This document shows positions 18,001-21,000 of a stretch of 64,000 nucleotides of DNA, in pieces. Source of the DNA: Perna viridis (taxonomy: Eukaryota); assembly GCA_037379345.1 (NCBI GenBank), contig CM074513.1, positions 22,010,001 to 22,074,000 of the forward strand, in the 5' to 3' direction. Made by a program: the position numbers. Within the stretch, counting starts at the first letter, position 1. Each line of letters begins with the position of its first letter.

Positions 18001-21000
18001 ACACATCAGAAACTAATGTAGTGTCAGACATTAAACAGCAATCCAAATTTAGAACTGAACTTTGTTTTTCATGTCTAGCTCCAACTGTTTGACCTCTCAG
18101 CTATTTTCTAGCTGCGCCCTGCAAAGTTACGTGTTCTGTAGATCGGTTACTCTTTCAATGAGTAACAGTTGCATAGATAGAGTAAGGGACTTCAAAAACT
18201 ACATTCGTGTTTCAGATTCTTTATTGTTCTATTATTTTCCATTTAATAACAATCTCATGCAGGAATTTGATTATCTACTTCAGATGAGTCATACAAAATA
18301 AATGTCCTGCATGATATGGTAAATTCTGTCCTGTGGTACAGTGAAACCCCTGGTATACAAAAATAAAGTTTAATCCAGACACTTTTTGAAGTCACATTAT
18401 ACAGGTTTTATGTATTTTGAACTTGAGTGAACCAAACACCTTTTTAAGTTGAAATAAAATCAACAGCACAAAAGTAGTTTAGTTTAGACAGGTTTAACTG
18501 TAAAAGTTCTGAGACCCAATTACTTGTTGGTCTCTGTAGGAATCATGGGTGAAACATGTTATGAAAAAAACCACTATTTTGAAAGTTTAATTTGACTACA
18601 AATGTATTTGTACCATCAGTATCCAGGAAACAAGACCAGATTTTCCATATCATTTTGGGAAAGTGAGTTATTATTTCATTGAAATGCACTGAAAATGAAC
18701 ATTCCAAGCAATCCAATGGCAGATAACTGTCAAAAACCTCATATCTGTGCAAATCCAGTGATGTAGAGACTAAATAATGGTCTTTTCAAATAGAGAAAAC
18801 ATGCTTGAGTGAAATTATAATGTCAGATTGAATGGTTTTTTACATGCATGTTTTTATTTTTTTCAGTTTTGCCTGATTCTTACAAAAACTTAAACTTGTA
18901 ATGCTCTAGATATAATATTTGCCATCATCATCATTCTGAGGAACAGTTCATGCTTGACTCTAGTTTATAGATATATAGATATACTATGATATTGACAAAA
19001 ACTCATATAAGACCATTGTAAGTCATTACAGAGCTATTGATTTTATGGAAACATCTTGATGAATAATACTTTAAAAATCTGTTACTGGATCATACATTCC
19101 TAGAATATTTTAAGTTATACTTTGAACAACATGATATTGTTTGGGGCTACCAGGTCTTGGCTTTCATTACAATGTTAAAAAGCTTTTCCTTTGCCAAAAG
19201 TGAAAGGTCTGAATTAATCTTTGTGTATTACTGTAAATCAGCTTATCATAAACAAAGGACACTTCAATAGACCTTAACCTTAAAATAACTATTTTAGTCT
19301 TTTACACATGAAATATACAAGTATATTGAACAGGATTTAACGCTAACCACTTAGTCACTCTTGCCGTCTGATAGTCTAATAGAAAAAAAATCAACTCGCA
19401 CTGAACAATCAAAAAATGATTTGAAGAAGGATATTCAGGGAATTAATAGCATCAGGCCACCCTCAATTAAGCTTTCTCTAGATCTCCCTAGATCTCCCTA
19501 GTTCTCCCTAGTTCTCCCCAACATTTTCTGGCCTTTGGCTTCATGGAAAGTGTTAATGTACAACATGTTTTAGGAAAACTTTCATATTGGTACATCATAC
19601 ATGTACTTTAACTTGTTTATATACATGTACATGTATTTTACAGTGAAGATAAACCTATTACATGGATAAATAGATTGCATTCACTTTATCAGTTTAAAAT
19701 GTTGTAAATAGAATTTTTATATCAATGTTAATATAGCTTAAGGTTGAACAACAAACCACATTTATTTAATTGTGGTGAAAAATCGGAAATATGTAGTATA
19801 GAGCGTAGTTGAATTGTAGTAGAGTTTTCCGTTTGGTAACGATGATTTCTTAATGTGTTTGATCTAGGTGCAGTACTTGAAAGTAAAACTTAAATTTACT
19901 ATGTTGAATTTAAATGGGACATGGCTACCCAAAGTAGATGGCTTGTAACAAGTGTATTTTCTGTTAGTTTTTAGCATGTAGTTGTCATAAAATGTGAGTC
20001 ATGTATAAGTGGCTGGTTGGTTACTTTTTTTTCTTGTCAGTGTTCAGGGTGACTTCATGTGTAAATGCATGTCATATGAAAGTCCATGTATTTATTCACG
20101 CAACCACTTCCAATACAAAATGTACTATAATTGTTATATTGGTATTTTCATTTACTTGATAGTAATATGTGCCATGGTCTAAAGGCTGTGTGAGCTATTG
20201 TGATCACATTGTGTCGTCATTGTCTGTTAACTTTTTCAAGCATCTTTTCTGAAACTATTGTATGCATTGTAACCAAACTTTGCATGAATGGTTTTTAGGG
20301 TATTTTTAACAATCCTTGCATGGAATTTTTTGATCTGGCAAAAAACATGGTCCGTTTTAAAAATAGACCATAGGGGTGAAATTGCAGAAATTTGCAAATA
20401 ACTAAAAATACATTTGGGTTTAGCTAATCTGGCAGAGTAAAATTGTTCACCATGATGGGAAGGACCTATGCTGAAATTTTCAGAAAGATCCATTGACGGA
20501 TGTTTGTGTTTTTGGCCCTAGAATCTCGTTAAACTATTCATGCACGTCTGATTTGATGATGAGATATTTAATAGTCATAGTTACTCCCGCCATTTACCCT
20601 TCTTCACTTTGACATTCAGAGCACTGCGCAGAAATCACATTGCATCAACACCAGGTGTAGGCTGTCATAATGCTTTATTTTGAATAGATGCTCTCTATTG
20701 ATTTAATGATTTTTGTGACACTAGTACAGTAGGGTCAAGAGTCCAGCTTTAGATGGCTAATAAGACTGTTTTTGACCAGGTAAGTGATTCAGACTCTTTA
20801 TTTTTCTGTAGGAACACAGTCAGCTATGCCTATAGTAGTCATTCGTCTTGGAGTCTGATGTCACTTCTGTCATGCATTTATACATAAATGTCTGTTTTTA
20901 TATAATTTTATTTGAATTGTCTTCAATAATTACTCTTTCTCATTTCAGGATTCCGTAGTTGGGAATGTGATGATGTTGATATCAATGAGGAACTTGCCCA

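What the first reader, a model, noticed from the sequence alone, without database searches (positions are those of the whole stretch)
20170..20800. 28S rRNA fragment embedded inside a pearl/Helentron-type non-autonomous element
Seen: ~170 bp (20521-20688) antisense to the conserved LSU domain IV core (H68-H71) sits between the recognisable head/core and tail of a pearl/CvA-like element, ~260 nt upstream of MAP1 exon 2. Known: Helitron/Helentron elements capture host fragments, and this part of 28S is the target hotspot of R2, R1 and Pokey. Inference: either a DNA-element family that has captured and dispersed an rRNA core, or a one-off insertion. It would be transcribed as antisense-28S within MAP1 pre-mRNA.
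Basis: partly seen in the sequence, partly recalled or inferred. Interest (0 to 1): 0.72.

Follow-up and report, generated by a model that had tools for sequence, protein, structure and literature searches.

The report
Decayed 28S rRNA piece beside mussel transposon
A worn-out 170-base copy of the core of the large ribosomal RNA sits against an old copy of a common bivalve mobile element inside an intron of a mussel MAP1 gene; it is a genomic fossil, not a working part.

Summary
The rRNA fragment is real. A local Rfam scan puts LSU_rRNA_eukarya at 20528-20693, minus strand (66.4 bits, cut-off 50, E 2.9e-15). By eye it runs on to 20521. It is decayed: 131 of 166 aligned positions match the consensus, and 27 consensus positions are deleted.

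The host gene is a MAP1/futsch orthologue of a mytilid mussel on the plus strand. The fragment lies in intron 1, about 256 nt upstream of exon 2.

The left flank (about 20175-20527) belongs to a dispersed non-coding repeat family. 25 unnamed relatives match it, in several reading frames. Its layout fits pearl/HINE (Helentron-associated) elements. It is not CvA.

The claimed "tail" (20694-20811) could not be verified. No inverted repeat or hairpin there exceeds chance.

All 9 relatives that cross the junction point carry another repeat unit there instead of 28S. The fragment is therefore not a canonical part of the wider family.

Whether this chimera exists in other copies could not be tested, because no eukaryotic DNA collection was open.

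Verdict: an ordinary, inert rRNA pseudogene fragment fused to a transposon copy. Low interest.

The parts
20165..20235 (-). Outer flank of the repeat element. In Cg_HINE orientation it is the left flank; in pearl orientation it is flank R. It holds a decayed GTCY-type microsatellite remnant (about 20211-20229), a 10-nt palindrome (20199-20208) and a remnant of the flank's inverted-repeat motif.
   Evidence: The minus-strand translation of 20258-20175 aligns to the post-unit parts of relatives: P0004 residues 55-90 (E 1.1e-4), P0144 residues 102-189 (to 20181, E 1.2e-10) and P0002. In five relatives (P0131-P0135) this part ends in a shared SDGNSSHGLWPGELK-like stretch, seen in slightly differing versions. 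No significant hairpin was found (z -0.26). The outer end is not defined.
20236..20527 (-). One core unit of a dispersed, non-coding repeat family. It happens to be stop-free for 93 codons on the minus strand.
   Evidence: HMMER against 1.84e9 representative proteins gave 9 hits at E<=1e-3; the best is P0002 at 2.9e-12 and 49% identity. A profile search gave 22 hits. The 25 unnamed relatives, plus the dubious hit P0008 (26 proteins run), map here by tblastn, in two or three different frames. No Pfam family matched. There is no second copy in the window.
20521..20693 (-). Pseudogenised fragment of 28S rRNA (domain IV core). It is in sense on the minus strand, so antisense to MAP1.
   Evidence: RF02543, 20528-20693, 66.4 bits, E 2.9e-15, model positions 2136-2328. 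The extension to 20521 was read by eye against the same conserved stretch. 131 of 166 columns are identical. At upper-case consensus positions 20 of 123 differ; 12 of these are GC-to-AT and 3 are AT-to-GC (hand count).
20694..20811 (.). It contains a consensus-like splice donor, CAG|GTAAGT, at 20777-20785.
   Evidence: No relative aligns here at E<0.1. No inverted repeat with the left flank exceeds chance. No hairpin was found (z -0.16). A resemblance of 20773-20811 to ends of mytilid HINE-type repeats is recalled only and was not tested.
20949..21043 (+). MAP1/futsch exon 2.
2..121 (+). MAP1/futsch exon 1, coding part. Intron 1 therefore runs from about 122 to 20948.
   Evidence: tblastn of P0014 residues 5-45, 80% identity, E 1.4e-11.
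26004..30197 (+). MAP1/futsch giant last exon.
   Evidence: Pfam MBL_MAP1B at 1.1e-88 and MAPB1_N at 5.3e-26..

Best explanation
What it is (about 0.9 sure): a roughly 173-nt pseudogene fragment of the nuclear 28S rRNA, from the domain IV core. It lies on the minus strand in intron 1 of a mytilid mussel MAP1/futsch gene. It is joined without any spacer to an old, single-unit copy of a dispersed pearl/HINE-type (Helentron-associated, non-autonomous) repeat. It is decaying neutrally and has no function of its own.

How it got there (about 0.45-0.5 sure, inferred): the rRNA piece was taken up as filler or captured DNA at the inner edge of the element. That is the variable 'spacer' position between one flank and the first core repeat. 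The uptake happened during rolling-circle copying or repair of the element, before this copy landed in the intron. On this reading the chimera moved as one unit, and sister copies with the same junction should exist in this genome.

Shown: the fragment, its orientation, its decay, the gene context, the family membership of the left part, and the abutting junction.

Inferred: the Helentron affiliation (from architecture described in papers), the capture step, and the existence of sister copies.
For: - The rRNA match is significant.
- The decay is AT-biased. At near-invariant consensus positions 20 of 123 differ: 13 are transitions, and 12 are GC-to-AT against 3 AT-to-GC. There are four to five deletions (hand count). 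The fragment's GC is 0.39, in an intron of about 0.31-0.35 GC.
- The left flank is a repeat. 25 unnamed relatives align to 20155-20527, in different frames. This argues for DNA-level rather than coding similarity.
- The order on the minus strand is unit, then microsatellite remnant, then a conserved flank. This matches the published pearl order L + cores + microsatellite + R (PMC3879986 passages). It also matches the Cg_HINE left flank of subTIR, IR and GTCY microsatellite (PMC7492417 passages).
- Family similarity runs to 20524-20527 (P0003, P0005, P0139, P0140) and 28S similarity starts at 20521. The two abut or overlap by about 4-6 nt, with no foreign bases between them.
- DTC84, a pearl-type element, is reported to have variable spacer sequences between flank L and the first core repeat. 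Helitron-type elements are reported to take up filler DNA and host fragments.
Against: - No second copy of the chimera was seen. There is none in the window, and its own genome could not be searched.
- 0 of 9 relatives crossing the junction position carry 28S. They carry a linker plus another unit.
- The right flank shows no element feature above chance. The fragment may therefore lie beside a truncated element rather than inside one.
- The HINE hallmarks (subTIR/IR hairpin, 3' palindrome, tandem core array) are not demonstrable in this copy.
- The relatives are unnamed short contigs of unknown species. The family's identity as a Helentron derivative rests on architecture, not on an autonomous partner.
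Confidence: 0.5

Rival explanations
1. One-off insertion in place. A stray rRNA fragment was pasted into or next to an element copy that was already sitting in the intron. The fragment could have been cDNA of 28S made by a retroelement's reverse transcriptase, or a piece of rDNA used as filler in double-strand-break repair. On this reading no other copy shares the junctions, and the element has nothing to do with the fragment's arrival.
For: - 0 of 9 relatives have 28S at that point.
- The right flank has no verifiable element feature.
- Dispersed rDNA-derived pseudogene fragments are reported as a normal genome component (review PMC10946416, passages).
- In mammals 18 28S/LINE-1 chimeric insertions are reported. 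Their median size is 269 nt and they are mostly in sense orientation to the LINE-1. Their hotspot region (3,636-4,115 of the human 28S) probably overlaps this part of the molecule; that mapping is my inference (PMC13174262 passages).
- On the minus strand the 28S piece is in sense and lies 5' of the repeat unit. This is the geometry of template-switch chimeras.
Against: - The partner repeat has the architecture of a DNA (rolling-circle) element, not of a LINE or SINE.
- No poly-A tract or target-site duplication is visible around 20165-20811 (read by eye; no formal test).
- A random hit would have to fall exactly against element sequence with no intervening bases.
- Sampling favours multi-copy chimeras over singletons (inference).
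Confidence: 0.4
2. Functional antisense element. The 170 nt complementary to 28S, transcribed within MAP1 pre-mRNA, acts as a snoRNA-like guide, as a source of small RNA, or as a regulator of the host gene.
For: - It is in the antisense orientation within a transcribed intron.
- There is a weak snR75 (C/D box) match at 20466-20553 on the plus strand (18.8 bits, E 0.19).
- Mutated positions happen to create CUGA and UGAUGA motifs at 20549-20565 (read).
Against: - The snR75 score is far below its gathering score of 40. The match is explained by complementarity to rRNA alone.
- The decay pattern is neutral and AT-biased, with deletions (hand count).
- The longest runs identical to the consensus are 19 nt.
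- There is no terminal stem.
- There is no conservation evidence.
Confidence: 0.02
3. Remnant of an rDNA-specific element (R2, R1 or Pokey type) that carried flanking 28S sequence out of the rDNA.
For: - The fragment spans the stretch that I recall as the R2 target. An 11-nt gap (2+9) falls exactly in the consensus letters UUAAGGUAGCC.
Against: - No reverse-transcriptase or transposase coding remnant adjoins it. The only long open frame (93 aa) has no Pfam match, and its relatives are repeat-derived.
- The fragment covers both sides of the recalled R2 site, which a simple 5' or 3' transduction would not do.
- With four or five deletions in 193 positions, one overlapping the site is not surprising (rough estimate about 0.3).
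Confidence: 0.03

Closest known systems
Pearl / HINE elements of bivalves (non-autonomous Helentrons: Cg_HINE, CvA/CvE/CvG, DTC84, MgE)
   Same: - The module order is flank, core repeat unit, tetranucleotide (GTCY / ACGG-type) microsatellite, flank with short inverted-repeat motifs.
- They are dispersed, non-coding and often intronic.
- Spacer content between one flank and the first core repeat varies (PMC7492417, PMC3879986 and PMC5874043 passages).
   Different: - This copy has one unit only and no tandem array.
- The unit recurs about every 300-330 nt in the relatives, not every 156-170 bp.
- SubTIR and palindrome are not demonstrable.
- The CvA primer is absent.
- A 28S fragment fills the spacer position. 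'rRNA' occurs 0 times in the three HINE/pearl papers I searched.
Dispersed rDNA pseudogene fragments ('rDNA-like junk')
   Same: It is a short, decayed, non-functional piece of rRNA gene sequence outside the rDNA array (review PMC10946416 passages).
   Different: Here it is fused directly to a transposon copy, so it may have been mobile as a passenger.
SINE28 (mammalian SINE derived from 28S)
   Same: It is a mobile element containing 28S sequence (PMC4994717 abstract).
   Different: [quoted passage not shown]
- This fragment is from the middle of the molecule (model positions 2136-2328 of 3401) and is attached to a DNA-type element.
[quoted passage not shown]
   Same: The fragment size is in range (reported 50-482 nt). 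The piece is in sense orientation and 5' of the partner element. It comes from a similar part of 28S (PMC13174262 passages).
   Different: The partner is not a LINE. No poly-A or target-site duplication was seen. The host is a mollusc, not a mammal.
Helitron/Helentron capture of host fragments (filler-DNA model)
   Same: It is an internal segment of host origin between element modules (passages).
   Different: Reported captures are genes or satellite repeats. I found no report of an rRNA core.

Membership tests
Eukaryotic LSU rRNA (Rfam RF02543), as a fragment | The covariance-model score reaches the gathering score. | tested here: met
   66.4 bits against 50, E 2.9e-15, in the local scan. The hit is not listed by the whole-window scans.
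Eukaryotic LSU rRNA (Rfam RF02543), as a working gene | Full-length, intact core. | tested here: not met
   Only model positions 2136-2328 of 3401 are present. 27 positions are deleted and identity is 79% (hand count).
HINE / pearl (non-autonomous Helentron) | A dispersed multi-copy family of non-coding sequence. | tested here: met
   This holds for 20175-20527 only. 25 unnamed relatives align, in several frames. The copy number in the window's own genome is not testable.
HINE / pearl (non-autonomous Helentron) | Flank with subTIR plus complementary IR, followed by a GTCY-type microsatellite next to the core repeats. | tested here: inconclusive
   A microsatellite remnant is present, and there is an 8-residue gap against relative P0004 at that spot. 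The relatives' shared flank motif is partly kept. No significant hairpin was found (z -0.26).
HINE / pearl (non-autonomous Helentron) | A short central array of tandem repeats. | tested here: not met
   No tandem repeat lies within 20170-20800. Several relatives do hold two units in tandem.
HINE / pearl (non-autonomous Helentron) | Opposite flank with a 3' subTIR complementary to the 5' subTIR, plus a palindrome. | tested here: not met
   The best head/tail inverted alignment scores 16, reached by 513 of 1000 shuffles and 96 of 120 genomic controls. The wider pair 20054-20074 / 20868-20888 (18 of 21) is reached in 33 of 100 null sequences. Fold z is -0.16. Decay could hide these features.
HINE / pearl (non-autonomous Helentron) | Insertion at TT or T-rich sites without target-site duplication; empty sites exist. 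| not testable with these tools
   The element ends are undefined. No genome was available to search for empty sites.
   The published CvA 5' primer gives 0 matches at up to 3 mismatches. Its 15-nt core matches only at 22616 and 39110. No 156-bp array is present.
SINE28 | [quoted passage not shown] | tested here: not met
   The fragment covers model positions 2136-2328 of 3401. The definition comes from the PMC4994717 abstract.
C/D box snoRNA (snR75 / SNORD15 clan) | The Rfam score reaches the gathering score; C and D boxes with a terminal stem. | tested here: not met
   18.8 bits against 40, E 0.19.
MAP1 / futsch (host gene) | MAPB1_N and MBL_MAP1B domains; orthology to named MAP1/futsch proteins. 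| tested here: met
   Pfam gives 5.3e-26 and 1.1e-88. Identity to the three best named hits, all Mytilus proteins, is 87-88%.

The most novel reading that the evidence does not exclude
The chimera is one member of a multi-copy, mytilid-specific HINE subfamily. This subfamily captured the domain IV core of 28S rRNA, including the stretch I recall as the R2/R1/Pokey landing zone, and scattered it through genes in both orientations. It would create ectopic landing pads for rDNA-specific elements and a genome-wide source of rRNA-complementary intronic RNA.
Probability: 0.1. Interest if true: 0.55.

Novelty: new member of a known kind. Interest (0 to 1): 0.22.

Why it matters
As it stands it matters little. 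It is one more example of two known things together: rDNA-derived junk and a host fragment lodged in a rolling-circle-type element.

It has some practical interest. Such fragments can be mistaken for rRNA contamination, or can attract rRNA-depletion probes and rRNA-based read filters to a neuronal gene's intron.

If sister copies exist, it would be, as far as my four literature searches show, the first Helentron-type family reported to carry an rRNA core. It would then be a natural test of whether rDNA-specific elements use such decoy sites.

Tried and rejected
- Whole-window Rfam scans do not list the LSU hit. Only the 801-base scan does.
- A word-index protein search with the 93-aa frame found nothing. 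The full HMMER search did.
- The ESM Atlas search was uninformative: best score 0.86, below the tool's 0.9 threshold.
- Two scans of genome contigs (bacteria and archaea only), made in the hope of host-contaminant contigs holding family copies, found no relative. 119 and 43 pattern matches were made and 0 were confirmed. This collection cannot speak for the mussel genome.
- Terminal inverted repeats were tested in three ways, and none exceeds chance: a by-eye pair at 20171-20191 / 20743-20760, the best gapped alignment, and the wider pair.
- Hairpins in both flanks: none.
- CvA primer: absent.
- A possible repeat-unit start to the right of the fragment (P0009 against 20773-20741, E 0.12) was rejected as chance.
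- The coding potential of the 93-aa frame was rejected. There is no Pfam match. Relatives match in different frames. The window has 34 stop-free frames of at least 90 aa.
- The coincidence of one deletion with the recalled R2 site was judged unremarkable.
- Literature: four searches listed no paper describing 28S sequence inside a Helentron, HINE or pearl element.
- Supplementary tables with the subTIR sequences of Cg_HINE (PMC7492417) and of HINE families (PMC4067079) are closed. They might have allowed a direct test of the head and tail.
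Full report
**1. The observation.**
A covariance-model scan of 20100-20900 against Rfam finds LSU_rRNA_eukarya (RF02543) at 20528-20693 on the minus strand. It covers model positions 2136-2328 of 3401, at 66.4 bits (gathering score 50) and E 2.9e-15. Two scans of the whole 64-kb window do not list this hit: gathering threshold, 0 matches; E<=0.05, 7 matches, none LSU. The tool states that its speed filters are laxer when less sequence is given, so I take this as a filter loss and not as evidence against the hit. 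The E-value rescaled to 64 kb would still be about 1e-13.

Counting the alignment by hand gives these figures:
- 131 of 166 aligned columns equal the consensus (79%).
- 27 consensus positions are missing, in gaps of 13, 1, 2+9 and 2.
- The longest identical runs are 19 nt.
- At upper-case (near-invariant) consensus positions, 20 of 123 differ. 13 of these are transitions. 12 are GC-to-AT and 3 are AT-to-GC.

The fragment's GC is 0.39, inside an intron of about 0.31-0.35 GC. This is the pattern of a pseudogene drifting towards local composition.

**2. The gene and the organism.**
- The stop-free frame 25962-30197 (+) carries Pfam MBL_MAP1B (1.1e-88) and MAPB1_N (5.3e-26, profile positions 57-196).
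- Residues 15-460 of that single exon are 87-88% identical to the three best named hits, all MAP1/futsch proteins of Mytilus (M. coruscus, M. galloprovincialis, M. edulis). Identity to scallop proteins is 58-60%. The window therefore comes from a mytilid mussel that is not one of those three species (inference).
- The peptide of 20951-21043 matches residues 46-76 of the M. galloprovincialis protein P0014: 24 of 31 identical, E 3e-15.
- tblastn of P0014 places residues 5-45 at window 2-121, residues 42-76 at 20939-21043, and the rest at 26004-30194.

Intron 1 thus spans about 122-20948. The 28S piece lies 256 nt upstream of exon 2, antisense to the gene.

I examined each exon on its own and built no joined, spliced model. 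The window has no N and nothing in it looks human.

**3. The left flank is a repeat-family member.**
Directly left of the 28S piece, the minus strand is stop-free for 93 codons (20236-20517). This is not unusual here, because the window has 34 such frames of at least 90 aa. The frame has no Pfam match.

- A word-index search found nothing.
- HMMER against 1.84e9 representative proteins found 9 hits at E<=1e-3. The best is P0002, at 2.9e-12 and 49% identity over 83 residues.
- A profile of the first hits found 22 proteins.
- I set aside two dubious hits. P0008 is a low-complexity sea-slug protein at 22% identity. P0010 is a 3663-aa protein matching over only 23 residues.
- That leaves 25 relatives. 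All are unnamed and come from contigs of 586-4363 nt held by ENA, Logan or JGI. I did not try to trace them.

By tblastn, the 26 proteins that I ran (the 25 relatives plus P0008; P0010 was not run) all map to window 20155-20538 on the minus strand. Across the whole window they give 30 alignments at E<0.05 inside 20100-20600, and only 4 marginal ones (E 0.03-0.046) elsewhere. Different relatives match in different reading frames of the same strand; examples are P0139, P0142, P0144 and P0146. The similarity therefore lies in the DNA and not in a protein. These are chance open frames in copies of a dispersed repeat.

**4. Architecture of that family.**
Relatives that extend downstream of the unit (minus-strand sense) continue into a short acidic/arginine-rich stretch. 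That stretch looks like a translated GTCY-type microsatellite. In five relatives (P0131-P0135) it then reaches a shared flank, an SDGNSSHGLWPGELK-like stretch in slightly differing versions.

The window keeps this part in decayed form:
- 20258-20175 aligns to P0004 residues 55-90 (E 1.1e-4), with an 8-residue gap at the microsatellite.
- The window down to 20181 aligns to P0144 (E 1.2e-10).

Relatives that extend upstream of the unit show a lysine-rich linker and then the end of another unit (P0003, P0005, P0007, P0009, P0135, P0139 and others). The unit is therefore tandemly repeated in other copies. From the two-unit relatives I measure a period of roughly 100-110 residues, that is about 300-330 nt.

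This order of core repeats, then tetranucleotide microsatellite, then a flank with short inverted-repeat motifs is the published architecture of two element types:
- pearl-type elements: L + cores + (ACGG)n + R (PMC3879986, passages);
- oyster Cg_HINE elements: a left flank of subTIR, IR and GTCY microsatellite, a right flank of subTIR and palindrome, and often a tandem-repeat array between them (PMC7492417, passages).

Both are now classed as non-autonomous Helentrons (PMC7492417 and PMC4067079, passages). I did not see the original pearl paper (Gaffney et al. 2003).

The affiliation is by architecture only. In this copy the diagnostic fine structure is not demonstrable:
- No tandem repeat lies within 20170-20800.
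- Neither flank has a hairpin (z -0.26 and -0.16).
- No head-to-tail inverted repeat exceeds chance. The best gapped score is 16, reached by 513 of 1000 shuffles and 96 of 120 genomic control pairs.
- A wider 18-of-21 inverted pair at 20054-20074 / 20868-20888 is matched in 33 of 100 null sequences.

It is not CvA. The published CvA 5' primer (PMC5874043, passages) has no match at up to 3 mismatches. Its 15-nt core matches only at 22616 and 39110. The CvA core is 156 bp, repeated 2-6 times.

**5. The junctions.**
- Left junction. Family similarity runs to 20524-20527 (P0003 and P0005 in one frame; P0140 and P0139 in others). The 28S similarity starts at 20521. The two homologies abut or overlap by 4-6 nt (GAATCT), with no foreign bases between them. 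Such short overlaps fit microhomology-mediated joining or template switching, but they do not tell the two apart.
- Right junction. The 28S similarity fades at 20686-20693.
- Beyond the right junction, 20694-20948 has no relative aligned at E<0.1. I do recall that mytilid HINE-type repeats end in a motif resembling 20773-20811, but that is memory, not a test.

**6. Is the 28S piece part of the family?**
Nine relatives run at least 20 residues past the junction position: P0003, P0005, P0006, P0007, P0009, P0135, P0136, P0139 and P0140. All nine carry linker plus unit there, and none carries anything that aligns to the 28S piece. The piece is therefore not a canonical module of the wider family.

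These relatives are distant (30-60% identity in translation) and of unknown species. They say nothing about a young subfamily in this genome.

The decisive test is to search this genome for other copies with the same junctions. It could not be run:
- The only open nucleotide collections hold bacteria, archaea, phages, plasmids and E. coli.
- Two long-shot scans of genome contigs for host-contaminant copies confirmed nothing.
- Within the window there is no second copy of any part of 19900-21000, although other repeats do occur twice.

**7. Most likely history.**
I commit to the following, at about even odds. The rRNA piece was taken up as filler or captured DNA at the inner edge of a HINE-type element, in the spacer position that is reported to vary between flank and first core repeat. 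This is consistent with the reported tendency of rolling-circle elements to pick up host segments. The chimera then inserted into MAP1 intron 1 and has since decayed.

The main rival (about 0.4) is a one-off event in place, by either of two routes: cDNA of 28S rRNA added by a reverse transcriptase, or rDNA used as filler in break repair. The geometry on the minus strand (28S in sense, 5' of the repeat) is that of template-switch chimeras. 28S/LINE-1 chimeras of similar size are reported in mammals: n=18, median 269 nt, 83% in sense (PMC13174262, passages). However, the partner here does not look like a retroelement, and I saw no poly-A or target-site duplication.

A functional reading has almost nothing for it. 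The snR75-like match (18.8 bits against 40, E 0.19) is what any antisense-rRNA stretch would give.

An R2/R1/Pokey remnant is also unlikely, because no coding remnant adjoins the fragment. The 11-nt gap at the recalled R2 site is one of four or five deletions and is not surprising.

**8. Comparison and novelty.**
Known relatives in kind are:
- dispersed rDNA pseudogene fragments, and TEs carrying rDNA pieces (review PMC10946416, passages; it lists SINE28 as the 28S-containing element and never mentions Helitrons);
- SINE28, which derives from the 3' end of 28S and is a pol III retroposon (PMC4994717, abstract; PMC4758252, passage), and so is a different thing;
- R2 families with 28S-derived 3' UTR sequence (PMC5035012, passages).

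Four literature searches listed no paper describing 28S sequence in a Helentron, HINE or pearl element. The word 'rRNA' occurs 0 times in the three HINE/pearl papers I searched. PMC7348941 mentions rDNA only as separate clusters. Closed supplementary tables (subTIR lists of PMC7492417 and PMC4067079) might bear on the head/tail question.

**9. Verdict.**
The object is an inert fossil of two known kinds joined together, and its interest is low unless sister copies turn up.

Noticed in passing
window 20520-20785: The 28S piece is framed by splice-like signals on the gene's strand. An AG at 20520-20521 follows a pyrimidine-rich run, and a consensus-like donor CAG|GTAAGT lies at 20777-20785. A 258-nt cryptic exon (20522-20779) would be possible. 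In the phase left by exon 1 it would hit a TAA within four codons, so inclusion would truncate MAP1.
   Followed up: partly
window 20466-20553 (+): There is a weak C/D-box snoRNA (snR75) match at 18.8 bits (gathering score 40), E 0.19. It is explained by the complementarity to 28S. Substitutions have created CUGA and UGAUGA motifs at 20549-20565.
   Followed up: partly
window 5630-5727 and 31243-31399: Two near-perfect foldbacks (80% and 89% self-complementary) match miRNA-precursor families mir-548 and mir-1468 on both strands, well below their gathering scores. They look like MITE-type palindromes.
   Followed up: no
window 3093-3765 and 22153-22996: Another dispersed repeat has two copies, one in MAP1 intron 1 and one in intron 2. 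They are 64-73% identical over about 600 nt. Similar chance open frames lie on the minus strand.
   Followed up: no
window 10574-10745 and 43512-43683: A young direct repeat of 172 nt, 97% identical. The second copy overlaps the upstream (5') end of the long minus-strand frame 40032-43556.
   Followed up: no
window 40032-43556 (-) and 52524-53069 (-): A second gene lies convergent to MAP1. It has a 1174-aa open frame with no Pfam match at E<=0.01, and a further 181-aa frame upstream on the same strand. It was not identified.
   Followed up: partly
window 35536-36096: A minisatellite-like array of several roughly 50-110-nt units at 75-92% identity. It is visible as repetitive open frames.
   Followed up: no
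window 18519-18897 and 37050-37446; 45616-45855 and 48241-48452: Two further two-copy repeats at about 72% identity, the second pair inverted.
   Followed up: no
window 20528-20693: Method note. A 66-bit LSU match that exceeds the family's gathering score is lost by the filters when the whole 64-kb window is scanned, and is seen only in an 801-base scan. Short, decayed rRNA fragments elsewhere in such windows may be missed in the same way.
   Followed up: yes
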